IMG/VR virus record: IMGVR_UViG_3300025161_000007
Coordinates: 3,496-67,495 of that record
DNA from: a virus
Length of the DNA: 64,000 nt
Reading direction: 5' to 3' (one strand)
The notes beneath the pieces are model-generated. The model saw only the letters and a list, made by a program, of their open reading frames with translations. It was not told the DNA's origin and ran no database searches. Of this stretch, positions 1,258-63,954 are shown one piece after another (the first letter of the stretch is position 1; the number at the start of each line of letters is the position of its first letter). The position numbers and the translations under genes were made by a program.

Positions 1258-1647
1258 ATGTTCAACAAAGTAGTCTTGGTCGGGCGTCTTGGCGCTGATC
1301 CCGACCGGCGGTTCACCCCGTCCGGTCAAGCGGTCACCAACTTTCGTATGGCCGTCTCCCGCCAGTATACCCGCAATGGGGAGCGGGTGGAGGAGACAGT
1401 ATGGGTTCGCGTCACCGCCTGGGGGAAGCTCGCCGAAGTGGTGGGCGAGTATCTCCAGAAGGGGCGCATGGTGTTAGTGGAAGGCCGGTTAGAGCCGGCT
1501 TCGGCCTGGATCGACAAGGCCTCCGGTGAGGCGCGAGCATCCGTGGAGGTCACCGCCGAAACCGTGAAGTTCCTTAGTGGTCGCAGCAACGGCCAGACCG
1601 AGGAGGGGCCTCAAGCCTCCGAGGTTGTGGAGGATATGCCGTTCTGA
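1258..1647 (+). CDS. ssb: Single-stranded DNA-binding protein
   Basis: MFNKVVLVGRLGADP...VLVEGRL; acidic C-terminal tip EDMPF; AAGGAGG RBS. Confidence 0.95.
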   Translation: MFNKVVLVGRLGADPDRRFTPSGQAVTNFRMAVSRQYTRNGERVEETVWVRVTAWGKLAEVVGEYLQKGRMVLVEGRLEPASAWIDKASGEARASVEVTAETVKFLSGRSNGQTEEGPQASEVVEDMPF

Positions 1648-1727
1648 GGAAGAGGTAGGGAGTAGCCAGCGGCAGCCCTGAAGGACAGGGGAGAGGTATA
1701 GGGCCTCCCCTGTCCTCTGTCTCACCT

Positions 1728-3989
1728 ATGGGAGTGAACATGGCGCTTGCAATCCCGATCTTTGGCCATAAGGCGCTCAAGCATATCACGTACAGAAATA
1801 CTATGCTTGAGTGCGTCCACCCAGAGGAAGCGAAGGAGCTCATCATTCTCAAGACGGATGATGAGTTTCCCGAAGAGTTCAGGGGGAAACCCGCGTCGTT
1901 CATCAGCGCCAATGTCAAGTCGGGCTGCGCATTCTATGGCCCGGACGTCGCGCAGAGATACGGCAAGGTGGCAGAGGATGCCATCTATTGCGGCACCCTC
2001 CTGTCGTCTCTGCGCTTCCGGCCCGTTAAGAGGACCATCCGCGTCCTTGTGGTCAAGGATGGCGAGCGTGGCACTGGCGACTGCCACGGTATCGTCTCGC
2101 CACAGTTATTGGAGGCCCTCCGCCAGGAGGATCAGGCCACTCAAGAGGCGAGGATGTTGTCCAGTGGTCGTGGCCTGCGTGTACCCAAGTCGCAGGTCGC
2201 GCAGTTCAGAATGGTGGTGCCTAATCAGCATCTGGTGAAGGGCACCATCCGAGAGGGGAAGACCGGCGACTTCGATCTCATCCTCCCACTCTCCGCCTTT
2301 AAGGGCAATAAGCCCAATGAGGGGGAGAACGAGTGGGAAGCCTGGATCGGAGTCAGAGAGTGGGCTTCCCCCCGCAAGTATCGGATGGGATACCAGGTCT
2401 GGCAGTATATCCCATTCGATGTGCTCAGCAAGGATATTGATCCAGTCGAGGATGCCGCCTATCTCCTCAATCAGTGGGATCGCAAAGACATCCTGGAGCA
2501 TCTTGGCATCGAGGACCCAGAGATGCCACCCAGAGATGTCTTCTTCGAAATCCTCCTGGCCAGTGACAAGACGGGGGTATCCTTACTGCACCCTGTCATT
2601 GCCAAAAAGGTCGCGCAGGCGTACCGGAACAGATGGCGCGACCTGGCTCTGAATGCTGGCCAGTATGGGATCGGGTTAATGGGTGTCCCTGACGACTCCC
2701 TGCCCTTAGGGGTCGTCGCGGCACCTGATATTCATGCCCTGGAAGTGATCTGCACCAGATATCCTCTCAGGGGGCCACAGGATGTGCGCGTCTTCAAGAA
2801 CGCGCACAAGGGAGCCTTTAAGGTCCCTCATGGCTGTGTCGCCATGAGCCATGCCACAGCCTTATTGCTGGCAGGCGATTTCGATGGCGACATCTTTGTC
2901 TTGCGTGACGCAGACGATCTCCCCCACGTCACGCAGTTCTTGAAGGGAAGGGAGCTTCCCCCTGACATCGTCAAGGAGAAGAAGCGGTTGAAGACACCCT
3001 GGAGTGAACGTACAAAGGTCTTCAACCGCGCCCGGACGATGTCAGCCATGATTGCTCCCATCGCCAACAGCATCACTAAAGCAGTGACCGTTGGACGATG
3101 GGACATCGTCTATCAACTGGGCCAGCAACTCCAGATCGCCGTCGATGGCATCAAGTATGATGGCGAACTGGATGAGGCCCTGGTCAATAAGCTCATGGGA
3201 GAGTTGGACCAGGTAGACTGGCTGGTCCAGGCCAAAGACAAGGCCGTGTTCTCCATGAAGGCCCCCACGGAGAGCCAATCGGAAGGCACCATCGCCAGGA
3301 TTTGGTCCCTCGTTGCCCAGGAGTTCACCCCCGTTGAGGAGCGGGCAGTGGACTGGGAGGAGTGGCGAGGATTGGTGCCTGCACCCTCCAGGTCCCTCTA
3401 TGATCCGCAGTCGAAGCGGGTCAATGGGGGGAAGATCATCAAATGCCAGGCCAATGGGGTCAAGCCTGGCGATATTGTGGATGATCACGGTTGCCCTTCT
3501 CGGAAAGGGCACGTGGTCAGAGAGGTGCGCAAGGGGGAGATCCTTGTCGGCGGGGTCATCGACAAGGGACCTGCGCACTTCATGGCCTGGAAGCTCTTCC
3601 TCGGCCCTATTGCCACAGCTATGAAGGCCGAGGGGGAAGAGCGGGATGAGGCCATCGCCGAGATCTGCCAGAATCTGCGGCGATGGGCGGAGGGAGAATC
3701 GCTCATTCGCGGCGATGAGGTATTGCCTGGATTAACTCAGAACCGCGAGGAGTGGTTCAAGGCGTTCTGGCACATCGGGATCGATCACCGGTCCACAGTG
3801 TGCTTCGTCGCCTTTCCCGATCTTTGCATCAAGGCCTTCGCTGACCTCGAACCAGAGGCAGCCACAAAGGCTGGTATTCGGTGTAAAGGCGGAAAGGTGG
3901 TATCATGGGCGGCAGCCCAGCCACTCATCGACTCGCTGCCACCAGAGCGCCGCGCCAGGGCGCTCCAGGCCATGCGGCAGTTCGCGTGA
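1728..3989 (+). CDS. Single-subunit two-barrel RNA polymerase, YonO/QDE-1 (cellular RdRP)-like; start may be 1740
   Basis: GDFDGD catalytic loop (aa ~383-388) plus the motifs GDCHGIVS, QFR...KG, TRYP...D and AVDGIK in the order found in cellular RdRPs. Confidence 0.8.
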   Translation: MGVNMALAIPIFGHKALKHITYRNTMLECVHPEEAKELIILKTDDEFPEEFRGKPASFISANVKSGCAFYGPDVAQRYGKVAEDAIYCGTLLSSLRFRPVKRTIRVLVVKDGERGTGDCHGIVSPQLLEALRQEDQATQEARMLSSGRGLRVPKSQVAQFRMVVPNQHLVKGTIREGKTGDFDLILPLSAFKGNKPNEGENEWEAWIGVREWASPRKYRMGYQVWQYIPFDVLSKDIDPVEDAAYLLNQWDRKDILEHLGIEDPEMPPRDVFFEILLASDKTGVSLLHPVIAKKVAQAYRNRWRDLALNAGQYGIGLMGVPDDSLPLGVVAAPDIHALEVICTRYPLRGPQDVRVFKNAHKGAFKVPHGCVAMSHATALLLAGDFDGDIFVLRDADDLPHVTQFLKGRELPPDIVKEKKRLKTPWSERTKVFNRARTMSAMIAPIANSITKAVTVGRWDIVYQLGQQLQIAVDGIKYDGELDEALVNKLMGELDQVDWLVQAKDKAVFSMKAPTESQSEGTIARIWSLVAQEFTPVEERAVDWEEWRGLVPAPSRSLYDPQSKRVNGGKIIKCQANGVKPGDIVDDHGCPSRKGHVVREVRKGEILVGGVIDKGPAHFMAWKLFLGPIATAMKAEGEERDEAIAEICQNLRRWAEGESLIRGDEVLPGLTQNREEWFKAFWHIGIDHRSTVCFVAFPDLCIKAFADLEPEAATKAGIRCKGGKVVSWAAAQPLIDSLPPERRARALQAMRQFA

Positions 3990-4015: not shown

Positions 4016-4525
4016 ATGATCGGCCTTGATGTTGACGGAACCCTACTCGACTATGCCTACTCCCAACAGGGAGAGGTGAACCGACAACTCATCGAGTCCA
4101 TCAAGGGACCGATTGCTCTCATCTCCAATCAGGGAGGTATCTCCCTGGGAGTTGAGGGCAAGGTCCGTGAGGATGGACGCCCTTACCCCACTCCGCAGGT
4201 GTTCGCCACCCGCTTTGCCACACTCATGGCAGAGCTAGGCAAGGTGGGCATTGAGGTCGCTTGTGTGCGGGTGTGTGTCTATCACCCACGGGCAAGCACC
4301 GAGGCCATTAAGAAGGCCAGGGAGGAGGTCCTCTCCATCATCAAGGGGTACTGCCGTGATGCAAAGGTATTCACGACCATCGCGGCGCGTAAACCAGCGC
4401 CGTATATGCTTCGCGAATCAAGGGTAAGTGCATACTACGGCGACGGTGACGAGGATGAACAGGCCGCCCAGGCAGCCGGAGTCGAGTTCATCCGCGTCGA
4501 CCGGCTCATGGGCAGCCAGGCGTAA
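4016..4525 (+). CDS. HAD-superfamily phosphatase (PNKP/GmhB-like)
   Basis: DVDGTL, ISNQGGI, RKPAP, GDGDED..AA..AG motifs. Confidence 0.85.
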   Translation: MIGLDVDGTLLDYAYSQQGEVNRQLIESIKGPIALISNQGGISLGVEGKVREDGRPYPTPQVFATRFATLMAELGKVGIEVACVRVCVYHPRASTEAIKKAREEVLSIIKGYCRDAKVFTTIAARKPAPYMLRESRVSAYYGDGDEDEQAAQAAGVEFIRVDRLMGSQA

Positions 4526-8911: not shown

Positions 8912-9276
8912 TGGACGCCTACATGGTCATGAACGGGAAGATCGAAAGGGGAATCCCCCACGGATACGCCTACGGCATAGACCGCACGTACAGGGCTACC
9001 TACCTGGGTACACGTCCCATCATCTGGATCGACGATGCGGTCAGCGCCAATGGGTACATCCTCAGCGTGCCAGGCGATGGCGTGATCGTCATGATCACCA
9101 ACGTGCGGCAGAACACCCCAGACCGCTATGTCTACACTTACGAGTCAGACGGCTGGGGTCTCTGGAACATGATCGTGAAGCTTGGGGAGTGTGAGGAGAT
9201 ACGCTGGCAGGGAAGCGACGGCCAGTGGTATCTCCTCACAGTGAAGGATGGGGTTCCCCTGGTGTCTCCGCAATAA
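8908..9276 (+). CDS. Hypothetical protein
   Basis: Overlaps the upstream stop; RBS present. Confidence 0.6.
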   Translation: MMDAYMVMNGKIERGIPHGYAYGIDRTYRATYLGTRPIIWIDDAVSANGYILSVPGDGVIVMITNVRQNTPDRYVYTYESDGWGLWNMIVKLGECEEIRWQGSDGQWYLLTVKDGVPLVSPQ

Positions 9277-9862
9277 GCTCTTCATCAATGCTTTGCGAGT
9301 CATGGGTAGCCGGCAGCGCAGGGAGTTCCTCCTTCGCCCTGCGCTCCGGCAACACACTGTAGAGCGCATCGACGTAGTCGCGGTCAACGCCCTTCAGTTG
9401 CACCACATCTCCCTCCAGGATGTTGACCGTGACATTGGAAGCCTGCTTGAGGAAGTTCTTGAGGGTCTCTTCCTCCGACATCTCCATATCGTTGTTGACG
9501 CCGGTGATGCGGTAGACCATCTCTACTGCCCACTTGCGTATGGACCAGGGAGCATTGGGGTCCGTCAACGCTTCTGAGAGGGTGCGGTTGGCTACGGGGA
9601 GGAGATCTACGATCCAGTGCAGGGTGGTCTTGCGACGGGGATCAGCCGCCATCTCCTTGATGGCTTCCTTCATGGCATCCTCGTACTCCTTCGTCCTGGT
9701 GATCTTCCTCACCCTGGATTCGGGGATGCCAAGCTCCTCAGAGATCTCCTTATAGGTCTTCTGGGCGAGCACAAGGGTAACCACACGATTGATCAACCCC
9801 AACTCGACGATGGTCGCCATCGGCGCGTTGGGGGTAGCACGCAACTTCGGCATAGACATCAA
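9236..9862 (-). CDS. HTH protein, candidate terminase small subunit
   Basis: N-terminal HTH TYKEISEELGIPESRVRK followed by helical region; own RBS (AGGAG) and TGgTATACT extended -10. Confidence 0.55.
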   Translation of the reverse strand: MMSMPKLRATPNAPMATIVELGLINRVVTLVLAQKTYKEISEELGIPESRVRKITRTKEYEDAMKEAIKEMAADPRRKTTLHWIVDLLPVANRTLSEALTDPNAPWSIRKWAVEMVYRITGVNNDMEMSEEETLKNFLKQASNVTVNILEGDVVQLKGVDRDYVDALYSVLPERRAKEELPALPATHDSQSIDEELIAETPGEPHPSL

Positions 9863-13993: not shown

Positions 13994-14172
13994 GGCGCAT
14001 AGAGGGTTCCTTTCGCGCACTTTACAGGCCCATACCCTCCGCGCCAAACGCGCATAGGGAGTTCCTTTCCGCATATTTCAGATGCCCATTACTCCCCGCG
14101 CAGCCCCACATCGCGTATAGAGGGTTCCTTACACGGCTACCTAGCGTAGCCTTGTGCCTACCCTCCGCGCGA
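13994..14172 (+). ncRNA. Array of three structured RNA repeats (13994-14045, 14050-14101, 14111-14172)
   Basis: Consensus GCGY-AUA-GRGRGU-UCCUU-[variable]-CC..U-ACYCYC-C-GCGC; compensatory changes GAGGGU/ACCCUC vs GGGAGU/ACUCCC. Confidence 0.75.
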
Positions 14173-14281: not shown

Positions 14282-14287
14282 GTTCAG

Positions 14288-14370
14288 TAGGGCGGGTGGG
14301 GGTCGAACCCACACGTTCTCACGAACAGAGGTTTTTAAGACCTCCGCGTCTGCCATTCCGCCACCGCCCC
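14288..14370 (-). tRNA. tRNA-Leu(TAA), no encoded CCA; probable attP region
   Basis: Acceptor stem GGGGCGG/CCGCCCT; anticodon arm GAGGT-CTTAAAA-ACCTC; long variable arm; GTGGG-TTCGACC-CCCAC T arm; adjacent to the integrase. Confidence 0.92.
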
Positions 14371-14392
14371 ACATATAGTGGTCCTCATCGTC

Positions 14393-14418
14393 TGTGCACA
14401 CAACATATTGTGTACACA
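14393..14418. promoter_or_regulatory. Inverted repeat between tRNA and integrase (operator or Int-binding site)
   Basis: TGTGCACACAA-cata-TTGTGTACACA, one mismatch. Confidence 0.45.
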
Positions 14419-14442
14419 AGCCATTTGGAGGGAGGGAGGCAA

Positions 14443-15339
14443 ATGGCAGTCAAGAGGACTTTGCGCGATGCGCTTCAGGACTATCTAACGTACCTGAAGG
14501 TATCTGGAAAATCGCAAGGTACGCTTCGCTATTACATGGTGAAGGTACCATCGCTCATCGAGTTCCTGGAGTCGCGGGGGGTTCACACCATCGATGGGAT
14601 CACCAGCCAGTTGGTACGCGACTTCATCGCAGAACTCCAGAAGACGCATGAGCCAGGTGGAGTCCATGCCATCTACCGTGGCATCAAAGCCTTTATCCGC
14701 TTCCTCTTTCAGGAAGGGATGATCGACAGCAACCCAATGGAGCGTGTGCGCTACCATGTGGGCGAGCAGGTCCCTCTCGATCCGGTCCCCATTGAGCACA
14801 TATCGGCCATTCTGGATACATGCGGTAGATCGCTGGTTGGCCTGCGTGATCGTGTGGCCATCATGATCCTGACCGATACGGGCGTTAGAGCACAAGAGCT
14901 GCTCAATCTGAACATTGGGGACATTGATCTCTCTGACGGCTCCATCATCGTGCGCAGGGGGAAGTCGTGCAAGCCACGTGTGGTCTTCATCGGCAAGAAG
15001 ACGCGCAGGGTCCTGCTCACGTACCTGAGGATGCGAGAGCCATACTCCAGCAATGATCCCCTCATTGTCTCATTCCCGTCGATGGAGCGCATGTCGTACT
15101 ATGGCTTACGCATCATGGTCAGGAGAAGGGCGATCGAGGCCGGCGTCAAGCCGCCAGTTATCCACGGCTTCCGCAGAACCTTTGCGCTGACGATGCTCAG
15201 AAATGGGGTGGATGTACTGACGCTGAGCAGGCTCATGGGCCACGGCTCCCTTCCCATCTTACTGCGTTACATCAAGCTGGAGAAGGGAGACTTGATCGAG
15301 GCCCACGAGAGTGGATCACCGGTCGACCGGCTGCTTTAG
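14443..15339 (+). CDS. int: Tyrosine recombinase/integrase
   Basis: TGVRAQEL, HGFRRTFA, LMGH and Y catalytic residues; N-terminal SAM-like domain. Confidence 0.95.
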   Translation: MAVKRTLRDALQDYLTYLKVSGKSQGTLRYYMVKVPSLIEFLESRGVHTIDGITSQLVRDFIAELQKTHEPGGVHAIYRGIKAFIRFLFQEGMIDSNPMERVRYHVGEQVPLDPVPIEHISAILDTCGRSLVGLRDRVAIMILTDTGVRAQELLNLNIGDIDLSDGSIIVRRGKSCKPRVVFIGKKTRRVLLTYLRMREPYSSNDPLIVSFPSMERMSYYGLRIMVRRRAIEAGVKPPVIHGFRRTFALTMLRNGVDVLTLSRLMGHGSLPILLRYIKLEKGDLIEAHESGSPVDRLL

Positions 15340-28002: not shown

Positions 28003-31000
28003 TCATGTCGTGGAATCCGTAATCAGACCATAGTTAGCCAGTGCGGTGATCAGGCTGGCAAGAGCCGCATTACCACCCTTGCTGCCAGTAACCGTGGGTT
28101 TGGTGATCATATTGGTGCCATTGAATCCGAGCTTGGGATTTCCAGAGGAATCCACGCCCATCTTCATGACAGCCACCTCGCCCCCATAGTAGTTCACATA
28201 GAACGTAGCGCTCCCAATGCGCGAGGAGTGCGTCGCGGTCTCCCATAGCGAGGCTAGCTTGAAGATCACCTGGTCCTCGGTCGTCGAGGTCTCTGCTCCC
28301 ATGGTCAATGACACGCCAATCGCACTGGCAGGGGTGGTCGTAGAGTTATGATTGATGTACAGGCAGTTGGTTACCCCGCTGTAATTGCTGTCCTTGATAG
28401 CAAGATACCCGCCACCATACCCGTAGAGGGTGCCACCAATGATCGACCCATTGACAGTCAGCCCCGTATCGTTGATGATCGCCATATGATACGACATGCC
28501 AGACCCGATAATGAAACGGATCGAAGTCTTGCTGGCTGTATTGTAGTCAGAGTAGAGAACGATCCCGGCGTTCTTCGAGTTGACCGAGGGGGTGCTGGCA
28601 TAGATGTCAACCATCGCACTCTTGTAAAGCGTTGGTTCATTGGCCTCCGACGATGCATACAGGTAGGCCTCTGTGGCATACGAGTAGTCGGAATACTGTG
28701 TACTGAAGTTGCTGTGGTAGCCACCAATGCCAACGACTGGCTGGGTAGTACTGTAGTCGTAGGCAGCCAGCCCATTGAACACAGAATCAGTCATCGTCAT
28801 CCTGATACCAGTTGCATCAAGGACGACTCTTCCGCCACCAGCATACAACTTGCCATCGGATGCTTTCGCCTCAAACTGGGTAGTCCCGCTGTTCACGCCA
28901 CGCAGGTAGTAGCCATCGCTCAGGTACCCAAAGCGGATGCCGGTCGAGGTGGAGCCAGCCCGCAACTCGCCAGTGCTTCCAAGCGAGAGTACGCCACTCA
29001 CGGTCAGATCACCTGTGTTCACGCTAAGCGCAGACAACGTAGAGACCGAGATGTGGTTGGCCGTGATCGTGCCCGTGTTGATCCAGTCGCCGGAGATCAG
29101 CGTAGCGCCAGCCAGGATTTGCACCGATGCCTTCGTGGTACCATTCTTCGCGTACCCGACCAGCACATGATTGGCTCCCAACGCGGAGAGGCTGGTGGTC
29201 GTGGAGAGCGTAAGGGGAGCACTGGCGGTCGCATCCACATACAGGTAGGTGAGCGCGGTCATGTTGCCTGTATTGCCATCGCTCACCGTCTTGGTGGTGC
29301 CATCCCCGAAGCGGATCGACACGCCACTCCAGGAGATCGTATCCGCATCCGTGGCCGTGAAAGTGCCGGAGACGGCCACGATTCGCCTCTGGTTGGTATA
29401 GGTCTGGGTGGCCGCATCGCCGCCCACAACCGTGATGTTCCCCTTCACATTCAGCGCAGAACCATCCCAGGTCAGATAACTGCCAGAGGGGTTGCCCACG
29501 CTGAACTTGTAGGTGGAGGTGTCATAGCCTAGCCAGAAGCCAGTGCCAGTATTGTAGGCCGTCTGGCCGCCAGAGATCCTACCCGATGATCCCACCGAGA
29601 TTCCAGAGGAGCTGATAGACACCACATTCGCTCCGCCCAGGTTACCAGAGGTAGCGTAGATCGTGCCCGATACTTCCAGAGCAGAGCCATCCCACTTCAG
29701 GTACTTCGAGGAGCCATCCCCCACGCTGAACTTGTACCCAGAGCTATACCCCAGCCAGAAGCCAGAGCCAGTGTTGTAAGCTGTCTGGCCACCAGCAATG
29801 CGCCCTGAGTTCCCGACGTTGATACCAGACGAGTCGATGGCGACCACGTTCGAGGAGTTACCGATGTAGCCTGCCACCGCATTGATGGTGCCCATCACAG
29901 TCAGCGCCGTACCATTCCAGGTCAGGTAGTTGCCGGATGGGTTGCCGATGCTCAGCTTGTACCCTGAGTCGTAGCCCAGCCAGAACCCTGTGCCTGTATT
30001 GTAGGCGGTCTGCCCGCCCTTGATGCGCCCCGTAGTGCCTATATCGATGCCATAGGAGTCGATGTCCACATGGTTGGAGTTTCCACCGATCCACCCCGCA
30101 GTAGCCTTGATGGTGCCTGCAACCTCCATGAGAGCAGCGCTGTTATCCCACAAGATGTACCCACCACGTGAGGCATCGCCAATCAGCCCATCGCCTGGCT
30201 CAAGCGTCTTGCCACCCCAGGCTTTGGTAGCAGATGCACCATAGAAGCCGAGGATCTTGTTGCCAGAGGTATCTTGCATCCATAACCCCTCGGAATCTGC
30301 CCACACAGGGGAGGCAGAGGTGGTGCGGAAGGCGAAGGTGGAGGTCTCTACAAAGACAGGAGCATCTGATTCGTAGATGGCACGAATCTCATCGGCACTC
30401 ATGGCGCGACCGATGAGAACCATGTCGTCGATCATGCCATCAAAGTAGCTGCTACCGTAATAGCCAACGTATGTGTTAGCGCCAGAGGTTGGAGTACCAT
30501 ACCCACCAGAAGCAACCAGGCTTCCGTTCAGATAGAGCTTCGTGGAGCTTGTGCTCTCATCCCATGTCACGCAGACGTGGTGCCAGGTATCCTTAGGGAA
30601 GCTGGTCGAGTTGAGCGCATAGCTACAGCGCATCACGCCGCCAATATAGGCGGCCAGGTTGTTGCTGTTCGTGATATACAGGATCACCCCAGCCGTGTAG
30701 TTGTGATCGAAGATCCACCGATATGTGCCAGACTGCGCATCGCTGGTCGGATACACCCATGCCATCACGGTGCCAGATGTTGGGAGCGTGATCCCAGTGT
30801 AATAGAGCGAGGCCGCGCTGCGCGAACTGGTGGAGTAGTGAGCGGTTCCCGACCAGGAGTGGCCTTGCCCTAGAGAGCCATCGCAGTACGGCGTAGCATA
30901 GGGAAGGTTCTCGAACTGCACGGCATCGATCCAGATCGAGCCACCGACAGGTAGGTTGCGGATCGCCACCCTGGCAGTCACGGCACCAGTCTCCATAGTG

Positions 31001-34000
31001 GCAGTAAAGCTCGCATGCTTCCAGGTAGTGGAGGCAGGGAGATCCACATAGGTGAAGAGCGAGCCACCAATCACATTTCCACTAGAGTTATAGCGGAAAA
31101 TATGCAGCCTGGCAGGGTATGGCCCCATGTAGTACAGCGAGGCTGTATAGGTCTGACCTTCAGTAACGCTTATCGAGGCCGAGTAGGCATCTGTAGTCTG
31201 CGAGCTACCATTATTGGTAATCTTCAGACAATAAGAGCCGTATGCACCACCACTCTCGCGAGAGATCACGCGGTCCGTGTAGGCGGTCCACCCATTTGTA
31301 TTCACCTCAAGGCTGGGGTTGATGATCAGGTTGGTGGTGGCTCGCGAGACGCTGACCGCCTTCCCGAACTTACCTGCCGAGAACAGCAGGTTGGCTCCAA
31401 CCCCCTTCTGTCCCAAAACGCTGGTAGTGTCACCGTCACGGTTCGTCTCGTAGGGTCCTGGCCCATCGAAGTGGCAGAGAAGGATCGCATCCTTGATCTG
31501 GATCGCATGTTTGCCTACGATCCATCCCCTGGCGCGCAGGTTCCCGTTCACATCGAGGTCGAACTGCTGATCTGGTGCGCAGTTCACCCCGATGTTGGCC
31601 TGCGAGTAGTCCACAAAGAGGATGTTGTTACCAACGGTCACATCATCGGTAAACGATGCGCCTCCCGTCACCACGATCCCACCGCTCTCCGGAATGCGCA
31701 CGATCTCCGTGAGCGCAGTCCCATTGTGCACGGAGAAGGAGAGTTGGCCCTTCCCAGAGGAGCCAGCCATCATCTTCACCTGCGCCAGAGAGCGGGAGTT
31801 GGATGTGTCATAAGCGGTGATCGCTCCCAGCGTGGCATTGGGAGATTGCGAGGGAGCCGAGAAACGAATCTCATCCCCTGGCGTCCCAAAGTCCAGGCGT
31901 GCTGAGGGGGAAGAGCGCAGGATGCCAATGCGCTGGTTAGTCGTGTCGATGTTCAGGATGTTGGCGCTTCCACTCGCATTGTAAAAGGCGATCCCAGAGG
32001 TTCCATCAGCCAATGGCCTTATAAGCTGAGTGGCTACATAACTGCCAGAGCCAGTAGCCACCAGCTTGAGAGGAGTGCGCTTGCTGGCATAGTCATAGAC
32101 CGATAGCCACATCTCCCCCTTGTAGCTGGCGTGGGTCGCATCGTTCCACAATGATTCGATATTACCAGACGGAACATCATTGGTCGTGCTCGTCTGAAGC
32201 CGGAAGACCAGTCCGCTACCAAAGCTCGCCGATGGAGTGCCCGTAGAGCGGTGGTTGATCGTCATCAGGTTAGAGACCGTGTTGGTAGCGCTATCCGAAA
32301 CCCCAAGATAGAGGGGAGTATCCGGCGTGATCGTCGAGCCAATGGAGAGATACCCACCCAGTGGTTGCAAGTAGAGGGGCGTTGTGCTACCACCAGTCGA
32401 TGTGTAGCCCTGGAGCGAGATCTTGTTGCTGGAGGTCAGAACACGCAGCCCAACATCACGGTAGGTATTGTTGAAGACGGCGATTATCGCTGGATCGGAA
32501 GAGGCTCCAGTGGTTACATGCAGACGGCCTGCGGGAAGGGTCGATGCCGATCCGCCTAACATCATGTTGGAGGAGGTGTCGAAGTAGAACAACGGCGTTG
32601 GGGTTGCCTGGATCGTGTATGAGGAGACGTCAGTCTCGAACGCAGCTTGCCAGCCATTCGGGTTCAGACCATTCGATGTAGTAGGTGCGCTCACGGTGAT
32701 CTGTGGGTATTGCCAAACCGTAGTGGTGTCGCCAATGATGATCAGTGGATTATTGCTGCCATCTTTCGCGAGGCGCACAAGCCGTGTAGGGCAACGCCCA
32801 ATGATGTTGACAGACGTTGAGTACCATGTGCTACCAGTGGAATACCAGTACCCACCAAGATTAATTGTCCAGGCACCAGTGCTTCCAGTGTAGTCATAGC
32901 CACAGATCGTTAAATTGAGAAACGTATTACCGCACTGCGGTCTGATTACAAGTGCGCCCGTGACATTGGCAGTCCACGTGCCTATAGCAGCCAGCAACAT
33001 AGCACTCCAGACTGCGTCATCAGTGCTTTTGACACCAACAGTGCCCTTCACCTGCAATGTGGCGGTTGGGTTGGTTCCCCCGATGTACACACGCTTGTTG
33101 GTGGAGTCAATGCTCACAATCGATGCGCCAGTGCTGGTTGCAATGTTGAGTGCGTTTGTGCTGTCTGAGGATGGCTTCCAGGATGGTGCAATGATGCCGT
33201 TGGTGAATACTTGCGCCTGGGAAGTTGCACCTGCCCGTGTTCCAGAAGCGAGCAGGAAGGATGACTCGTGGACGCCATCCACCATGTCAGCACTCAGATT
33301 GGAGACCGTGGTTGTGCTCGTCACCACGAGGGGGGCCGTACCGGTGGCAACCGTGCTCTGGAATTGCGGAGCATGGACATTGCCACTTCTGCGCACCATG
33401 AACTGATTCGAATTGCCATCCGTAGCCACAGCGAGCACAGGCTCGTAGGTATCGAGATCGATCTGTGTGACTGCAAATCCACTGGGTACCGATCCCGCTT
33501 CCCAGTTGAGGGGAGTCCAGCCAGCGGAATGCTCGTTATCATAGATCGTGAAGCTGACAGAGCCAGCTTCAGCAACGTAGACCTCAACCGCAGCGCCCTC
33601 ATAGACACCCCCCTCGATCAGGCGAATCTTGCGCACGATGCCAGAGGATGAGTAGAATGATCTACTCAAGACAGAGAGGGTTGGGTTGGCCCCATAGTGC
33701 ACGTTGGCATAGAAGGTGGTAGATGAGTGACGGCCGGATTGAGTATCACGCACGGTGAATAGAGCAGAGGCGCGAGTGCCACCAGTCCCCCCAGGAGCTA
33801 CAGGCCCATTACTGGCGATGCGATACCAGCCAGCAGCACTGATCGTCGCGCTGTATCCCTGGCGTTTGGCAAGATCGGCTGCATGGGATCCATCGACCAT
33901 ATCTGCGTTCAGATTGGTCACGGCCGTGGTGCTGCTCACACTGAGGGGAGCCGTGCCAGTGGCCACATTCGAGATGAAGCGCGTGGCCGTGATGCTGGAG

Positions 34001-37862: not shown

Positions 37863-38227
37863 TACAGTATCTCCACCAGATCGAGTAAGCAGACAAACTT
37901 TTTGCCGGCTGGATCAAGTAATCGTATCTCCATAGGTTGGGTCAGTGCCATGTTGTAAGTCGTCCCGTCGTTCATTGTGATCGTGCAATGCCCATAGTCA
38001 TCGAAGTGGGTACGTATCGTCGATATGGTGCCATATCCAGGCTCATAGGTATCATCACTCGGCACAAGGAGAGCGATCCTGGCCCTGGTGCGCCTGGCAG
38101 GATCGGCTACCAGCACATCATGGTCATTGATCGTGCGCGCGTATTTCCTGACCCTACCAGCGCTTGTGGAGTAATTATCGAACAAGGTCCGATACTTGTA
38201 GTAGTTGATGGTTACGTAGTTGTTCAT
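37862..38227 (-). CDS. Distal-tail-like small protein
   Basis: Position immediately after the tape measure gene. Confidence 0.5.
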   Translation of the reverse strand: MNNYVTINYYKYRTLFDNYSTSAGRVRKYARTINDHDVLVADPARRTRARIALLVPSDDTYEPGYGTISTIRTHFDDYGHCTITMNDGTTYNMALTQPMEIRLLDPAGKKFVCLLDLVEIL

Positions 38228-38230
38228 ATC

Positions 38231-54225: not shown

Positions 54226-54253
54226 ATTATAACATCGCTGGAAAATCTGTCAA
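54226..54253 (-). promoter_or_regulatory. Consensus sigma-70 promoter for the portal/head operon
   Basis: TTGACA (54253-48), 16 nt, TATAAT (54231-26), with extended TG. Confidence 0.8.
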
Positions 54254-60716: not shown

Positions 60717-61171
60717 GGTTCACCTCCACTCACCAGCTTGCTATTCCATACCCACACGGGGAATATGAGCACACATGATAGAAATAGGCTTGTGTACATG
60801 CCAGACTGTCGCTAGACTAGAGGTGAGCGGGAGATGGGATTGTGGACAGAACCGGAGGGAGCAGAATTTTTGGTGGGGTATTAAGGTGGCACTCTTAAAG
60901 GGCAAAAGTGATCCCACCCCCCCCCACATAGCATGTTGTGCACGCCGCCATAGGGGGGCGTGTGTGGGAGGGAAGGGTCCGTGAAGTTGGGCCTGCCGCC
61001 TGAGGGAGTTGGGGGATCGTGGGAGAGAAGGCAGGGGAGCGCGTCTTGGGAAGGGGAGCTCTGATTGTGAGAGACGGCGACTGCCTACGGCGAGGCTTCA
61101 GTGAGCAGAGCGAGACTCTGCTAATTGAAGCCGCCGGCTGCTGAGAGGCGGCTGTAAGCAGCGGAGGTCGT

Positions 61172-61534
61172 ATGGCAGGGGAGCTCGTGCTGGCGAGGGT
61201 CGGGCAGGCAGTGCAAGCGGACATTAAGTTGCAGATCACCTATAGCAGTAAGGGACTACAGAAGGGGTGGACGTGGATTCCGCAACTTGGTCCTTCGCGG
61301 GACCTGTTCGCCCAGTATATGGACTGGTGCCGTGCCGGTCTCTGGCCGGCGATGTGGGAGGAGTACAGGCTGGCGTTTGAGGCTGAGCTTAATCAGCCTC
61401 GCCAGCAGGCGTATCTGAAGCGTATCGCCCTGCGTATCCAGCAGGGCAGGCGAGTAGCAATCGCCTGCTTCTGCCCGGAAGAGCGATTCTGCCACCGCAG
61501 CCTTGTCGCAGCAGCAGTGAAGAAGCTGCTGTGA
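61172..61534 (+). CDS. DUF488-family protein
   Basis: IPQLGPSRDL...WEEY...ACFCPEERFCHRSLVA. Confidence 0.75.
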   Translation: MAGELVLARVGQAVQADIKLQITYSSKGLQKGWTWIPQLGPSRDLFAQYMDWCRAGLWPAMWEEYRLAFEAELNQPRQQAYLKRIALRIQQGRRVAIACFCPEERFCHRSLVAAAVKKLL

Positions 61535-61664
61535 TAGGGGAGCGAAGTTCGCCGTAGGTGGTTCACGAGAACTGCCTGCGGCGAATTTCGCATTGCCAGA
61601 GCGTTGACTCTGGTAATTGAAACCGGCAGCTGCTGAGAGCCGGTTGCAAGCAGCGGAGGTTGCT

Positions 61665-61913
61665 ATGTTTCACGGTGCTACCATCCCCTTCCTGGAGACA
61701 TGCCCTGTCTGCGGTGACCCGATGACCGCGGACCAGCAAGTGGATGGGATCTGCATTGCCTGCGCAGAGCTTGCTCTGCCAGGCGACTGCGAGCATGACT
61801 GGATCGCAGTGCAAAACCGCCTGGACGACGACGGCTATCAGGTGGCACCGTTCTCGGTCTGGGTCTGCCGCATCTGTGCGGCAGTTATGACAGACGAGGA
61901 GGCCCCATTCTAA
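61665..61913 (+). CDS. Zn-finger hypothetical protein
   Basis: CPVC, CIAC, CEHDW, CRIC; GGAGG RBS. Confidence 0.65.
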   Translation: MFHGATIPFLETCPVCGDPMTADQQVDGICIACAELALPGDCEHDWIAVQNRLDDDGYQVAPFSVWVCRICAAVMTDEEAPF

Positions 61914-62226
61914 CAGAATCGCCGCAGGTGGTCGCGAGACTGCCTGCGGCGTTATTCTCGTTGCCAGAGTCAGGCCCCTCCCTCAGTTACGGGACAGGAA
62001 GAGGGAGGGGTCTGAGAGTTAGACTCGCCCCTTCCTGAGAGTCGCCGGGCAGCGGCGCGCCCAGGAGGGGGGCGGGAGGGGTGGGAAGTATGGGGGGAAA
62101 AATGTGCTATCGGGCCAGGCGCATTTTCCCCCTATAGGCAAATTCCTCGCTTCCCACCCTCTGGAATTGCCTTCGGCGAATATCGTGTTGCTAGAGTGCT
62201 CTAGCAATCTCACAAAGGAGGCAGTG

Positions 62227-62607
62227 ATGAGAGTGATCATTGCCGTTGACGGATCGTGTATCGGCAACCCAGGCCCCGGAGCCTGGGCTGCCATCATGAT
62301 CTATGGACAGCACAGGAAGGAGTTGGTGGGAGCAGAGCCAGCAACCACCAACTCCAGAATGGAGTTAGTGGCGGCCATCAGGGGGCTTCAGGCCCTCAAG
62401 CGTCCGTGTGAAGTAGAGCTTCACACGGACAGTTCGTACGTTGCAGGCGTAGTGTCCGGGCGCTATGCCTGCAAGACCAACCTGGACCTGGTCGGGGAGC
62501 TAAGGTCCCTGACCAGGGTCCACAAAGTCCAGGTCGTCCGCAGTGAGGACGACCTGGTGAAGCGGGCGCACAGCCTGGCACTGGCAGAAGCCAGGCTATG
62601 CGCCTGA
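62227..62607 (+). CDS. rnhA: Ribonuclease HI
   Basis: [14 protein letters not shown]; [10 protein letters not shown]; HTDSSYV. Confidence 0.9.
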
Positions 62608-62729
62608 GCGAATCTCGCCGAAGGCAAGCGCTATAATTGCCTTCGGCGAGATTTGCATTGCCAGACTGTTGAGTCTGGTAATCAAAGCCAGCAGCGCCGG
62701 AGGGCTGGCTGAAAGGCGCGGAGGGTAAT

Positions 62730-63185
62730 ATGGTAGTTTATTTCACGAGCCAGGGCTCGGTGGAGACCGAGCTCGTGGCCGTCACGTTCTTCCCCTCATG
62801 CGAGGGGATGGACCCATCCGCCTATGGGTGGATAGATGGATACAAGTTTGCTGCTGACACGGATCATGCAACGATCTATGTTCCGTCCTGGTGGCGGGTC
62901 CACCAGGTAGCAAAGGAAGCGGTGAAGCAGGGCATCCTTATTGCTGAGGAGTGCCGATCCTGCGAGATCGTCCGGCGCGTCCTGGAGACGGCCGGCAAGC
63001 ACTGGAGCTACCGCGGGGATATCATCTACCTCCGCGGAGAACCGTTCGCATACTTCCGTCACGTGGACGACGAAGTCCACGAGGCGGGAGTAGTCGGGGT
63101 CCCCGACGAGATCGGGGACCCCGATTGGAACGAGTTTACCATGAGGGAGATGTCAGATTTCCTCTCCCGCATGGCGTACGGATGA
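62730..63185 (+). CDS. Hypothetical protein
   Basis: GGAGG RBS after the pseudoknot. Confidence 0.65.
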   Translation: MVVYFTSQGSVETELVAVTFFPSCEGMDPSAYGWIDGYKFAADTDHATIYVPSWWRVHQVAKEAVKQGILIAEECRSCEIVRRVLETAGKHWSYRGDIIYLRGEPFAYFRHVDDEVHEAGVVGVPDEIGDPDWNEFTMREMSDFLSRMAYG

Positions 63186-63326
63186 TCCGCTCGCCGCAGG
63201 TAGCCAACTGCCTGCGGCGATATCCGCATTGCCAGACCATTGAGTCTGGTAACTCGTCCTTCCCACAAAGCCTATGCTCACCTCAACAAGGAGGGGGCCA
63301 AAAGGCCGGGGAAGGCAGCGGAATTA

Positions 63327-63905: not shown

Positions 63906-63954
63906 GAAATTCACGGTCTGCCGGCCTCACCGCAAGACCGGCAAGGAGGAAGAG

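What the first reader, a model, noticed from the sequence alone, without database searches (positions are those of the whole stretch)
1728..3989. Compact single-chain two-barrel RNA polymerase related to eukaryotic RNAi RdRPs / YonO
Seen: GDFDGD at nt 2874-2891, with GDCHGIVSPQL, QFR...KG, VICTRYP...DVRV upstream and LQIAVDGIK downstream. Established: these match in order the DGxGxIS, QxRxxGxKG, VxRxP..GD, GxDxDGD and AVDxxK motifs of QDE-1-type RdRPs and their phage DNA-dependent relatives (SPbeta YonO, phi14:2 gp66). Inference: at ~750 aa it is a small member of the group. It sits in a temperate phage whose head and terminase operons have near-consensus host sigma-70 promoters, so its targets may not be late genes as in SPbeta.
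Basis: partly seen in the sequence, partly recalled or inferred. Interest (0 to 1): 0.8.

Follow-up and report, generated by a model that had tools for sequence, protein, structure and literature searches.

The report
Phage single-chain two-barrel RNA polymerase
A complete 67-kb integrase-bearing phage genome encodes a compact, roughly 750-residue RNA polymerase of the same fold as the eukaryotic RNAi polymerases QDE-1 and RDR2; this kind of phage enzyme is already known, but this branch has never been tested and its job in the phage is still open.

Summary
ORF 1728-3989 (+) is intact, and its likelier start is ATG 1740.

An AlphaFold model (pLDDT 87.6) matches maize and Arabidopsis RDR2 and QDE-1 best (Foldseek E 2e-18 to 1e-12, TM about 0.5). 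Thermus-phage gp64/gp62, P23-45 gp96 and phi14:2 gp66 follow. All eight residues that define two-barrel RNA polymerases are present.

Pfam RdRP does not hit this protein directly, but it hits 10 of 28 relatives. YonO is not detectable by sequence.

The gene sits on the early/replication strand, directly after an SSB gene, in a complete temperate phage that shows no other polymerase or primase. A perfect sigma-70 consensus precedes the portal gene.

Relatives pair with SSB, RNase H or an HU-like protein. YonO pairs with the HU-like YonN in the same gene order.

Best reading: a non-virion DNA-templated RNA polymerase for early or middle phage genes (0.45). Main rival: a replication primer or R-loop synthase (0.30), which is already proposed in print.

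This is a new member of a known kind.

The parts
1728..3989 (+). Gene for the single-chain two-barrel RNA polymerase (753 aa from ATG 1728; the likelier start is ATG 1740, giving 749 aa)
   Evidence: ORF and translation. SD GGGAG at 1730-1734 lies ahead of ATG 1740. The identical 749-aa database protein is P0002. AF2 model pLDDT 87.6, pTM 0.81. Foldseek against RDR2 and QDE-1 gives E 2e-18 to 1e-12.
2025..2387 (+). First barrel (beta-subunit-like DPBB, residues about 100-220). It carries GTGDCHG (nt 2070-2090, with D118 at 2079-2081) and QFR..KG (nt 2202-2243, R161 and K171).
   Evidence: Strand pattern of the model. D111, D118, R161, K171 and G172 are invariant in 28 homologues. The region aligns to the maize RDR2 motifs SDGIGKIS and QIR..KG. 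The domain limits are my estimate from the secondary structure.
2664..2909 (+). Second barrel (beta-prime-like DPBB, residues about 313-394). It carries R344-Y-P346 (nt 2757-2765) and the metal-binding D384-F-D386-G-D388 (nt 2877-2891).
   Evidence: Pattern match. P346, D384, D386, G387 and D388 are invariant. The region aligns to QDE-1 ARSP...GGDYDGD. The Pol IV and Pol II largest subunits match this part in Foldseek.
3129..3155 (+). LQIAVDGIK motif (residues 468-476), at the end of the long helix pair that follows the second barrel
   Evidence: Q469 and K476 are invariant; V472 and D473 are nearly invariant. Helices 425-454 and 458-474 appear in the model.
3393..3563 (+). Insertion of about 55 residues (556-612) that the three closest relatives lack. 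It is modelled with low confidence.
   Evidence: Alignment A2. pLDDT is below 50 at 563-576 and 602-611.
1261..1647 (+). Phage SSB gene directly upstream (128 aa, with an acidic ...EDMPF tail). It probably shares an operon with the polymerase gene.
   Evidence: Pfam SSB, E 7.8e-31. Alignment of SSBs from related loci. An SSB lies near the polymerase gene in four lineages.
1683..1715 (+). 11-bp GC-rich hairpin (GGACAGGGGAG..CTCCCCTGTCC) in the 80-nt gap between the SSB and polymerase genes
   Evidence: Read directly from the sequence. Its function is untested.
62228..62607 (+). RNase H gene on the same strand, about 6.6 kb upstream across the record's joined ends
   Evidence: Pfam RNase_H, E 3.3e-19. 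Homologues lie directly upstream of the polymerase homologue in L005, L039, L040 and L043, and in 5 of 16 cyanobacterial loci.
61045..63305 (+). Cluster of six strong copies of a repeated cassette of about 100-130 nt: a terminator-like hairpin, then TTGC-hairpin-TAAT, a third hairpin, then RBS and ATG. Three weaker copies lie in the first 1.9 kb of the record. It is a candidate phage-specific transcription signal; the link to the polymerase is inferred only.
   Evidence: the repeat finder families D2-D4. Alignment and fold with compensatory changes. Covariance-model hits at 61045-61175, 61536-61668, 61906-62017, 62131-62229, 62602-62733 and 63178-63305, plus L002 760-848, 1774-1876 and 115-215. 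There were no comparable hits elsewhere.
54226..54253 (-). Perfect sigma-70 consensus promoter (TTGACA-16-TATAAT preceded by TG), 90 nt upstream of the portal gene
   Evidence: Promoter scan. The expected number of 12/12 sites in the 64-kb window is 0.007.
14287..15339 (.). tRNA-Leu(UAA) gene (minus strand, 14287-14370) abutting a tyrosine integrase gene (plus strand, ORF 14296-15339). This is the lysogeny module.
   Evidence: ARAGORN, Rfam, and Pfam Phage_integrase at E 2.2e-27.

Best explanation
The gene encodes a single-chain RNA polymerase of about 750 residues, built on two double-psi beta-barrels. It belongs to the branch of this superfamily that also holds the eukaryotic RNAi polymerases.

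The active site is formed between the two barrels. The second barrel gives the metal-binding triad D384/D386/D388 and R344-x-P346. The first barrel gives D118, R161 and K171.

I take it to be a non-virion, DNA-templated RNA polymerase. The host RNA polymerase would make it early, from the plus-strand operon it shares with the phage SSB gene. It would then transcribe a subset of early or middle phage genes on its own, possibly helped by a small DNA-binding partner. That partner is SSB here, and an HU-like protein in SPbeta and in many cyanobacterial relatives. The head and tail genes would be left to the host enzyme. This is the P23-45 gp64 pattern, not the SPbeta YonO pattern.

Shown: the gene, the fold, the catalytic residues, the gene neighbourhood, and the consensus host-type promoter before the portal gene.

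Inferred: a DNA template, RNA as the product, the timing, the target genes, and any use of the repeated cassettes at 61-63 kb as its promoters.
For: Fold:
- AF2 model pLDDT 87.6, pTM 0.81.
- The best PDB matches are maize and Arabidopsis RDR2 and QDE-1 (E 2.2e-18 to 2.4e-12, TMq 0.47-0.53, apart from the open-form ZmRDR2 entry 7w88 at 0.40). Then come gp64/gp62 (6e-11, 6e-10), gp96 (4e-7) and gp66 (2e-6).
- The best viral models include two proteins their depositors named RNA-dependent RNA polymerase, and P23-45 A7XX94.

Catalytic residues:
- They are invariant in 28 homologues and align with RDR2 and QDE-1.
- They correspond to the eight residues that PMC2919709 (passages read) lists as invariant in all two-barrel RNA polymerases.

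Precedent:
- YonO (PMC5467207, passages read) and gp64 and gp96 (PMC10770324, sections 9 and 12 plus passages read) are shown to be DNA-dependent transcriptases.
- gp64 transcribes early and some middle genes, while the host enzyme does the late genes.

Not a virion enzyme:
- The gene is on the early strand, among SSB, RNR, ThyX and recombination genes.
- No second DxDGD is present in the giant tail-module ORFs.

Host-type late promoter:
- A 12/12 consensus with TG lies 90 nt before the portal gene. The expected number is 0.007 per window.

Partner pattern:
- An HU-like gene lies directly downstream of the polymerase homologue in 15 of 16 loci of the roughly 900-aa cyanobacterial clade.
- yonN lies directly downstream of yonO and is homologous to that HU-like protein (E 3e-12).

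Candidate signals:
- Nine copies of a cassette occur only in the early region. The spacing between TTGC and TAAT varies from 11 to 16 nt, which does not fit a sigma-70 promoter.
- P23-45 likewise has clustered conserved promoter and terminator motifs for its phage polymerases (PMC10770324, section 9).
Against: - No activity, template or transcript data exist for this protein or its clade.
- Outside the 61-63 kb cassette cluster, 20 intergenic gaps share no motif except an RBS-like word, which is found in 5 of the 20. I see no genome-wide promoter set.
- The cassettes lie upstream of the polymerase gene in the direction of transcription. They were not found in the related loci searched. They could equally be RNA-level elements.
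- The recurrent neighbours (SSB, RNase H, and in one locus a clamp-loader/clamp/PolA/helicase operon) are replication proteins. That fits the primer-synthase rival as well or better.
- No recognisable primase or DNA polymerase was found in this phage or in four related phage records (0 of 5 for each of five families).
- Pfam RdRP does not match this protein itself.
Confidence: 0.45

Rival explanations
1. Replication primer or R-loop synthase. The enzyme would make RNA on phage DNA, either on SSB-coated single strands or at an origin. The RNA:DNA hybrid would prime host DNA polymerases and be trimmed by the phage RNase H. It would then be the phage's substitute for a primase, as with RNA-polymerase-primed ColE1 or T7 origins (both recalled).
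For: - The gene directly follows the SSB gene.
- SSB genes lie near the homologue in four lineages: W, A, C and G.
- RNase H lies on the same strand here. It lies directly upstream of the homologue in L005, L039, L040 and L043 and in 5 of 16 cyanobacterial loci.
- An RNase-H-clan gene (RVT_3) lies directly upstream in L003.
- In L016 the homologue sits between a beta-clamp gene and a PolA gene. They are part of a seven-gene operon with clamp-loader and UvrD-like helicase genes and no primase.
- DNA_pol_A, DNA_pol_B, Toprim_2, Toprim_4 and Prim-Pol are each found in 0 of 5 phage records. DnaB is found in 2 of 5.
- The idea is in print. PMC3417536 (passage read), citing Iyer and Aravind 2011, proposes that these enzymes act as primases and notes RNase H fusions in cyanobacterial versions.
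Against: - YonO, gp64 and gp96, the relatives whose activity I read about (PMC5467207, PMC10770324), are transcriptases.
- The L016 replisome arrangement was not seen in any of the 20 other cyanobacterial loci examined.
- Many temperate phages lack a primase and a DNA polymerase and simply use the host's (recalled), so their absence is weak evidence.
- Phage RNA polymerase genes often sit beside DNA-metabolism genes, as in T7 (recalled).
- The partner in most cyanobacterial loci and in SPbeta is HU-like rather than a replication enzyme.
Confidence: 0.3
2. Late-gene transcriptase, as YonO is in SPbeta. The enzyme would transcribe the head, tail and lysis genes on the minus strand.
For: YonO does this (PMC5467207, passages read). 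The structural genes form one long minus-strand block, 26.3-59.1 kb, with few gaps.
Against: - A perfect host-type promoter precedes the portal gene, and a 10/12 site with TG lies near the start of the block.
- The gaps of the late block share no phage-specific motif.
- The protein is not detectably similar to YonO in sequence.
Confidence: 0.07
3. RNA-templated RNA polymerase, as in eukaryotic RNAi. It would copy phage or host RNA into double-stranded RNA, for regulation or counter-defence.
For: The nearest solved structures are RDR2 and QDE-1. Pfam RdRP hits 10 of 28 relatives. QDE-1 uses both DNA and RNA templates (PMC9508822, abstract only).
Against: - The window shows no Dicer- or Argonaute-like partner among the Pfam hits.
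- The neighbours are DNA-binding proteins.
- The literature treats the phage relatives as DNA-dependent enzymes (PMC5303251 and PMC7281927, passages read).
Confidence: 0.07
4. A DNA polymerase with a two-barrel core (as archaeal PolD has), or an inactive relic.
For: PolD shows that the fold can make DNA (PMC7708050, abstract only). This phage has no recognisable DNA polymerase.
Against: - PolD is not among the listed Foldseek matches, while RNA polymerases fill the list.
- The full catalytic set is conserved across 28 homologues, which argues against an inactive relic.
Confidence: 0.03

Closest known systems
Eukaryotic cellular RNA-dependent RNA polymerases (QDE-1, RDR2; Pfam PF05183)
   Same: They are the best structural matches over the whole catalytic core (E 2e-18 to 1e-12, TMq 0.47-0.53). 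The motifs are collinear and all eight invariant active-site residues are shared. Pfam RdRP hits 10 of 28 relatives.
   Different: - This protein is shorter than the solved RDR2 and QDE-1 chains (753 aa against about 900-1070 residues).
- The Pfam model does not reach this protein itself.
- It is encoded by a phage beside an SSB gene, with no RNAi partners.
- It has a 10-residue spacing between the conserved R and K of the first barrel, where RDR2 has 5.
- The template is unknown.
Thermus phage P23-45 gp64 / P74-26 gp62 non-virion RNA polymerase
   Same: It is a single-chain two-barrel phage enzyme of similar size, encoded outside the structural module. Foldseek gives E 6e-11 and 6e-10, with TM by target 0.45-0.47. 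In P23-45, late genes are likewise left to the host polymerase (PMC10770324, section 12).
   Different: - Sequence identity is only 12-13% over the structural alignment.
- RDR2 and QDE-1 match better than gp64 does.
- This phage has no virion polymerase to make the first transcripts.
- This phage is temperate.
Bacillus prophage SPbeta YonO
   Same: It is a single-chain two-barrel polymerase of a temperate phage. The motifs are collinear in the hhalign output: QFR/DFR, SAFKG/SQFKM, YQxxQ, GDFDGD/FDNDGD and AVDxxK/TIDFAK. It is paired with a small DNA-binding protein gene, yonN.
   Different: - The similarity is not statistically detectable: no profile hit at E <= 10, and hhalign E 0.088 with probability below 1%.
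- YonO transcribes late genes (PMC5467207), whereas here a consensus host promoter precedes the head genes.
- The partner here is SSB, not HU.
Virion RNA polymerases phi14:2 gp66 and P23-45 gp96
   Same: They share the two-barrel core with a DFDGD-type metal site. Foldseek gives E 2e-6 and 4e-7.
   Different: Those are giant virion proteins or tape-measure fusions (2166 and 5002 residues). This one is a free 750-aa protein in the early module. The match is weak (TMq 0.19-0.28).
[quoted passage not shown]
   Same: This is the same sequence family. Relatives come from Coleofasciculus, Allocoleopsis, Crinalium and Cyanosarcina. 50 of 401 sampled cyanobacterial genomes hold a member. The association with RNase H that those authors noted recurs here.
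   Different: This copy is in a complete tailed-phage genome, and its nearest named relatives are Anaerolineae or Chloroflexota assemblies. It is unfused, and its immediate neighbour is SSB. I could not see those papers' supplementary family lists to check whether this clade is in them.

Membership tests
Two-barrel (double-psi beta-barrel) RNA polymerase superfamily | Two double-psi beta-barrels in one catalytic core, seen as fold similarity to solved members | tested here: met
   The AF2 model has pLDDT 87.6. Of the 28 PDB matches at E <= 0.001, every row listed is a two-barrel polymerase: RDR2, QDE-1, gp64/gp62, gp96 or gp66. Pol IV and Pol II largest subunits follow at E about 0.005-0.01. 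I did not inspect coordinates. The barrels are inferred from the matches and the strand pattern.
Two-barrel (double-psi beta-barrel) RNA polymerase superfamily | DxDxD metal-binding triad in the beta-prime-like barrel | tested here: met
   D384-F-D386-G-D388. It is invariant in 28 homologues and aligns to QDE-1 DYDGD.
Two-barrel (double-psi beta-barrel) RNA polymerase superfamily | The eight invariant residues listed in PMC2919709 (QDE-1 D709, R738, K743, R962, P964, D1007, D1009, D1011) | tested here: met
   The counterparts are D118, R161, K171, R344, P346, D384, D386 and D388, by the alignments to RDR2 and QDE-1. Seven are invariant in A1; R344 is present here but is not invariant among the 28. 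The residue numbers of QDE-1 come from the paper's text, and the pairing of D118 with D709 goes through the RDR2 alignment.
Two-barrel (double-psi beta-barrel) RNA polymerase superfamily | Template-dependent nucleotide polymerase activity | not testable with these tools
   This needs purified protein.
Pfam RdRP (PF05183; eukaryotic cellular RdRPs) | Match to the family model above its curated cut-off | tested here: not met
   There is no PF05183 hit for this protein, even at E <= 10. 10 of 28 relatives hit it at E <= 0.01, best 1.9e-9. 3 of 11 database relatives carry a precomputed PF05183 hit. The protein is related to the family but, by this test, is not a member itself.
Pfam RdRP (PF05183; eukaryotic cellular RdRPs) | RNA-templated RNA synthesis | not testable with these tools
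YonO-like phage RNA polymerases (SPbeta) | Detectable sequence similarity to YonO | tested here: not met
   The profile of 28 homologues finds nothing in the SPbeta record at E <= 10. hhalign against YonO gives E 0.088 and probability 0.65%. The motif order is nevertheless the same.
YonO-like phage RNA polymerases (SPbeta) | Transcribes the phage late operon | tested here: inconclusive
   The evidence is indirect. A perfect host-type promoter precedes the portal gene, and no shared phage motif occurs in the late-block gaps. No transcript data exist.
P23-45 gp64-type non-virion RNA polymerases | Fold match to gp64/gp62, and a gene outside the virion module | tested here: met
   8f72_B at E 6.2e-11 and 8f5m_B at E 5.9e-10. 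The gene is on the early strand. RDR2 and QDE-1 match better, so this protein is a neighbour of that family, not a member.
Virion-packaged two-barrel RNA polymerases (phi14:2 gp66, P23-45 gp96) | Polymerase domain inside a giant virion or tape-measure protein | tested here: not met
   The protein is free-standing and 753 aa long. The giant ORFs of 2935, 2188 and 1098 aa carry no DxDGD.

The most novel reading that the evidence does not exclude
This compact polymerase and its relatives work as a pair with a small DNA-binding protein: SSB here, HU-like in SPbeta and many cyanobacteria. In this phage the pair, together with the phage RNase H, would make and process RNA on single-stranded or origin DNA to start phage replication. 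The enzyme would then be a two-barrel 'primase'. It would also be the prokaryotic counterpart of the recalled QDE-1 and RPA partnership on single-stranded DNA, and so a living model of the activity from which the eukaryotic RNAi polymerases arose.
Probability: 0.3. Interest if true: 0.7.

Novelty: new member of a known kind. Interest (0 to 1): 0.4.

Why it matters
Phage single-chain two-barrel polymerases are regarded as the stock from which the eukaryotic RNAi polymerases were drawn (PMC7281927 and PMC5303251, passages read). Only a few distant members have been studied: YonO, gp64, gp96 and gp66.

This clade lies closer to RDR2 and QDE-1 in fold than those do. It is short and models with high confidence. 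It also comes in a complete phage genome with a clear neighbourhood.

That makes it a practical subject for settling a question that is already in print but untested: do these enzymes transcribe phage genes or prime replication?

The recurring pairing with SSB, HU-like or RNase H genes gives concrete partners to test.

Tried and rejected
- Direct family and sequence searches gave nothing useful. Pfam gave only a sub-threshold leucine-zipper hit. PHROGs gave one unnamed family. PDB phmmer gave only chance hits. tblastn against 50,697 deposited phage records gave no match.
- A complex prediction of the polymerase with the phage SSB gave no verdict: score 0.00 in two runs, controls not run. It counts neither for nor against binding.
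- Host identification through the tRNA-Leu gene failed. 333 of 401 sampled genomes of the phylum of the Chloroflexota assembly G005 matched, but the best identity was only 86%. The host therefore remains unassigned. Four genomes of that sample are flagged unpublished (G352, G046, G280, G181).
- I searched for a second two-barrel enzyme in the giant tail-module ORFs and found none.
- I searched 20 intergenic gaps for a shared promoter motif and found only an RBS-like word.
- Rfam found only the tRNA, so the repeated cassette is not a described RNA family.
- The covariance model of the cassette found no copies in the 14 related loci searched.
- The 547-aa ORF at 12320 was checked as a possible hidden polymerase or primase. 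Its nearest Atlas clusters are unnamed viral proteins.
- The 9236-9862 (-) ORF with a Sigma70_r4 hit has only an N-terminal helix-turn-helix and no region 2. I do not count it as a sigma factor.
- The metagenome scan returned only 5 short loci.
- Iyer et al. 2003 could not be read: it is not held, and a title search found nothing.
- The search of earlier findings was not open.
Full report
1. What is there

The window holds an intact ORF at 1728-3989 on the plus strand, 753 codons long. The back-translated GDFDGD pattern occurs once in the 64 kb, at 2874-2891, and in none of 100 shuffles.

ATG 1740 is the likelier start. It has a GGGAG 5 nt upstream, and ATG 1728 has none. The identical database protein P0002 begins at the 1740 ATG.

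An 11-bp GC-rich hairpin at 1683-1715 lies in the 80-nt gap after the preceding gene.

2. What the protein is

Direct searches say little:
- Pfam gives no relevant hit, even at E <= 10.
- PHROGs gives one family of unknown function (phrog_34895, E 1.2e-16).
- phmmer against PDB sequences gives only chance hits.
- tblastn against 50,697 deposited phage genomes gives nothing.

The protein is not an orphan, however.
- The word-indexed search found 11 relatives. 3 of those 11 carry a precomputed Pfam RdRP (PF05183) hit.
- The exhaustive HMMER search found 187 cluster representatives at E <= 0.001, 100 at <= 1e-10 and 21 at <= 1e-30.
- In an alignment of 28 full-length relatives, D111, D118, R161, K171, G172, P346, D384, D386, G387, D388, Q469 and K476 are invariant.
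- Scanned one by one, 10 of these 28 match Pfam RdRP at E <= 0.01, best 1.9e-9. The window's protein does not.

A profile of the 28 found 12 PDB sequences at E <= 10.
- Five are cellular RdRPs: maize RDR2 at 9.5e-4 over three collinear stretches, two QDE-1 sequences at 0.049, Arabidopsis RDR2 at 0.1, and Thielavia QDE-1 at 0.74.
- Two are Pol IV largest subunits (E 2.1).
- Five are unrelated.

The printed alignments pair GTGDCHG with the RDR2 SDGIGKIS motif, QFR..KG with QIR..KG, RYP with QDE-1 RSP, and GDFDGD with GGDYDGD.

3. Structure

AlphaFold2 with the 28-row alignment gives a confident model: mean pLDDT 87.6, pTM 0.81, and 498 of 753 residues at pLDDT >= 90. The weak stretches are 262-269, 563-576 and 602-611.

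Foldseek against the PDB gives 28 matches at E <= 0.001.
- The list is headed by maize and Arabidopsis RDR2 and by QDE-1. E runs from 2.2e-18 to 2.4e-12, TM by query is mostly 0.47-0.53, and the alignments span 625-969 columns.
- Next come P23-45-type gp64 (8f72, 6.2e-11) and P74-26 gp62 (8f5m, 5.9e-10).
- Then come P23-45 gp96 (4.4e-7) and phi14:2 gp66 (2.1e-6).
- The largest subunits of Pol IV and Pol II match the second barrel at E about 0.005-0.01.

Against predicted viral structures there are 23 matches at E <= 0.001. They include two phage proteins their depositors named RNA-dependent RNA polymerase, P23-45 A7XX94, and several crAss-like proteins.

The RMSD values over the long alignments are large, about 7-12 Å. 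The domains are therefore probably posed differently. I did not see coordinates, so the two barrels are inferred from these matches and from the strand pattern (residues about 100-220 and 313-394).

4. Active site

PMC2919709 (passages read) lists eight residues as invariant in all two-barrel RNA polymerases. In QDE-1 they are D709, R738, K743, R962, P964, D1007, D1009 and D1011. By the alignments, the counterparts here are D118, R161, K171, R344, P346, D384, D386 and D388. All eight are present. Seven are invariant in the 28 relatives; R344 is not.

5. Relation to the named phage enzymes

YonO was fetched from the SPbeta record. The 28-sequence profile finds nothing in that record at E <= 10. 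hhalign of the profile against YonO gives E 0.088 and probability 0.65%. The alignment does put QFR on DFR, SAFKG on SQFKM, GDFDGD on FDNDGD and AVDxxK on TIDFAK.

The YonO link is therefore one of superfamily and motif order, not of measurable sequence similarity. By fold, RDR2 and QDE-1 are nearer than gp64, gp96 or gp66.

On size:
- Smaller than this 750-aa protein: gp64/gp62, at 591-595 residues in the solved chains.
- Larger: YonO (839 aa), the solved RDR2 and QDE-1 chains (about 900-1070 residues) and gp66 (2166).

6. The genome around it

The window is bases 3496-67495 of a 67,495-base IMG/VR virus record that CheckV rates 100% complete.

The record's two ends overlap. Window 63294-63407 equals record bases 2-115, and window 63893-64000 equals bases 148-255. 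A 485-nt stretch is present at one end only. The assembly therefore closes on itself, with an indel variant.

The plus strand, from about 59.3 kb through the join to 26.3 kb, carries these genes:
- MazG, DUF488 and RNase H (62228-62607)
- a radical-SAM protein, SSB (1261-1647) and the polymerase
- RadC and DUF6166
- glycosyltransferases
- a tyrosine integrase abutting a tRNA-Leu gene
- ThyX and a class II ribonucleotide reductase
- a PD-(D/E)XK nuclease and an AAA_24 ATPase

The minus strand (26.3-59.1 kb) carries terminase, portal, major head and tail genes, and three giant ORFs.

No ORF scanned matched a DNA polymerase, primase, helicase, sigma factor with region 2, or second RNA polymerase. 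Six-frame family searches of the whole record found no DNA_pol_A, DNA_pol_B, DnaB_C, Toprim_2, Toprim_4 or Prim-Pol. The giant ORFs have no DxDGD.

7. Promoters and repeats

Across 46-64 kb, promoter-like sites are no more frequent than in shuffles (9 found, 8.8 expected). One of them, however, is a perfect TTGACA-16-TATAAT with an upstream TG, at 54253-54226 (-), 90 nt before the portal gene. The expected number of such perfect sites is 0.007 per window. A 10/12 site with TG lies at 58984-58956 (-), near the 5' end of the first minus-strand ORF. Two 11/12 sites lie on the plus strand at 13960 and 15797.

The only repeated regulatory-looking element is a cassette of about 100-130 nt. There are six strong copies at 61045-63305 and three weaker copies in the first 1.9 kb of the record. 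Each copy ends at the RBS and start codon of a small plus-strand gene.

The cassette starts with a conserved terminator-like hairpin. Next comes TTGC, a hairpin whose stem changes by compensatory substitutions, and TAAT. In three copies a third covarying hairpin follows. The distance from TTGC to TAAT varies from 11 to 16 nt, which does not suit a sigma-70 promoter.

The cassette is not a known Rfam family. It is not found elsewhere in the genome or in 14 related loci. Twenty other intergenic gaps share only an RBS-like word.

8. What travels with the gene elsewhere

Related loci came from four sources: IMG/VR, GTDB genomes, metagenomes and a sample of cyanobacterial genomes. In that sample, 50 of 401 hold a member at E <= 1e-10.

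Named sources of relatives are Anaerolineae and Chloroflexota assemblies, Coleofasciculus, Allocoleopsis, Crinalium, Cyanosarcina, a Desulfobacteraceae assembly, and one assembly labelled Methanomethylicaceae.

Neighbour by neighbour:
- SSB is the only neighbour shared with the window across lineages. It is found in four lineages: this phage, L015, L003 and L006-L010.
- An RNase H homologue lies directly upstream of the polymerase homologue in L005, L039, L040 and L043 and in 5 of 16 loci of the roughly 900-aa cyanobacterial clade. An RNase-H-clan gene (RVT_3) lies directly upstream in L003.
- In that cyanobacterial clade, an HU-like gene lies directly downstream in 15 of 16 loci. The sixteenth locus is cut at a contig end.
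- In SPbeta, yonN lies directly downstream of yonO and is homologous to that HU-like protein (E 3e-12).
- In one Coleofasciculus locus (L016) the homologue sits between a beta-clamp gene and a PolA gene, in an operon with clamp-loader and UvrD-like helicase genes. None of the 20 other cyanobacterial loci shows this.
- Of five phage records with the gene, 0 of 5 have PolA, PolB, Toprim_2, Toprim_4 or Prim-Pol. 2 of 5 have DnaB. Three of those five records are incomplete (31-86%).

9. How it most likely works

The enzyme chemistry is the safe part. This is a two-barrel nucleotide polymerase with a complete, conserved active site, and I put that at 0.9 or higher. That it makes RNA on DNA is inferred from YonO, gp64 and gp96 (PMC5467207, PMC10770324).

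Its role in the phage is open. I rank first a gp64-like role, at 0.45. In this reading the host polymerase makes the enzyme early, together with SSB. The enzyme then transcribes a subset of early or middle genes, perhaps from the cassettes, and the late genes are left to the host polymerase.

Close behind, at 0.30, is RNA synthesis for replication: priming or R-loop formation with SSB and RNase H. This reading fits the neighbours at least as well and is already proposed in print (PMC3417536, citing Iyer and Aravind 2011).

A YonO-like late role (0.07), RNA-templated synthesis (0.07), and a DNA-polymerase or dead-enzyme reading (0.03) are less likely. The remaining 0.08 is left for something I have not thought of.

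10. Novelty and limits

The kind is known:
- YonO-like proteins in firmicute phages and cyanobacteria (PMC2919709)
- their kinship to eukaryotic RdRPs (PMC7281927, PMC5303251)
- their RNase H link and a primase proposal (PMC3417536)

This is a new, uncharacterised member in a complete phage genome.

For all papers I read passages or named sections only. For PMC9508822 and PMC7708050 I saw only the abstracts in the search listing. Supplements were closed, so I cannot say whether this clade is already among the published family lists. Iyer et al. 2003 and Iyer and Aravind 2011 were not seen.

The host is unassigned. The SSB-polymerase complex prediction gave no verdict.

Noticed in passing
window 61045-63305 and L002 (record bases) 115-215, 760-848, 1774-1876: Nine copies of a cassette of about 100-130 nt, each ending at the RBS and ATG of a small plus-strand gene. 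It has a conserved terminator-like hairpin, then TTGC-hairpin-TAAT with compensatory stem changes and variable spacing. Three copies have a third covarying hairpin. It is not in Rfam and was not found in related loci.
   Followed up: partly
window 63294-64000 versus L002 1-255: The two ends of the virus record overlap (114 nt at 100% identity, 108 nt at 99%). A 485-nt stretch holding ORF 63449-63806 is present at one end only, between two 29-nt direct repeats (63380-63408 and 63864-63892). The genome therefore closes on itself, and an indel variant exists in the population.
   Followed up: partly
L016 6299-17239 (Coleofasciculus assembly, 182-kb contig): A seven-gene same-strand operon: DnaX-like clamp loader, pol III delta, beta clamp, the polymerase homologue, PolA with 3'-5' exonuclease, a 155-aa protein and a UvrD-like helicase. 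It is flanked by Macro-VWA and NACHT/STAND genes. It looks like a self-contained replication module without a primase. The arrangement was not seen in 20 other cyanobacterial loci.
   Followed up: partly
L074-L089 (cyanobacterial loci); SPbeta NC_001884 60834-63875: An HU-like DNA-binding protein gene lies directly downstream of the polymerase homologue in 15 of 16 loci of one cyanobacterial clade. The same order (yonO, then yonN) holds in SPbeta. YonN and the cyanobacterial protein are homologous (E 3e-12). This suggests a conserved polymerase-HU pair.
   Followed up: partly
P0003 (closest relative: 44% identity by BLASTP, 49% by phmmer): The nearest homologue is labelled as coming from a Candidatus Methanomethylicaceae (archaeal) assembly, on a 4.9-kb contig. 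The literature I read says these enzymes are unknown in archaeal viruses. This could be mis-binning, or it could be something of interest.
   Followed up: no
P0043/P0158 (1221 aa) and other long relatives: Some relatives are much longer: 1100-3300 aa, with open frames up to about 2600 aa in cyanobacteria. One cluster is named AlkB by its source, which suggests fusions of the polymerase with other nucleic-acid enzymes.
   Followed up: no
window 4016-4525 (+): The gene directly after the polymerase starts MIGLDVDGTLL, which looks like a haloacid-dehalogenase-type DxDxT phosphatase motif (the motif is recalled). Pfam gives only a weak HAD_2 hit (E 0.051).
   Followed up: no
window 3393-3563 (residues 556-612 of the polymerase): An insertion of about 55 residues that is absent from the three closest relatives and modelled with low confidence.
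   Followed up: no
window 28003-47038 (-): Three very large ORFs in the tail module (2188, 1098 and 2935 aa) that are rich in S/G/T/A. The one scanned (1098 aa) had no PHROG hit, and none of the three has a DxDGD motif.
   Followed up: partly
window 13995-14135 (+): Three 23-nt direct repeats spaced 55 and 63 nt apart, just upstream of the tRNA-Leu and integrase pair. They may be integrase arm-type sites.
   Followed up: no
G003 (IMG/VR record, 75 kb) 22.4-31.7 kb and 45.1-46.3 kb: A related phage that also carries the polymerase gene has its own clusters of short repeated intergenic elements, one cluster just upstream of its polymerase gene. A third phage (G001) shows none at the same sensitivity.
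   Followed up: no
window, Pfam tally of 42 smaller ORFs: The phage also encodes proteins with CHAT, DUF488, MazG, calcineurin-like phosphoesterase and SU10-adaptor domains. Only the MazG ORF (59294-59896) was placed.
   Followed up: no
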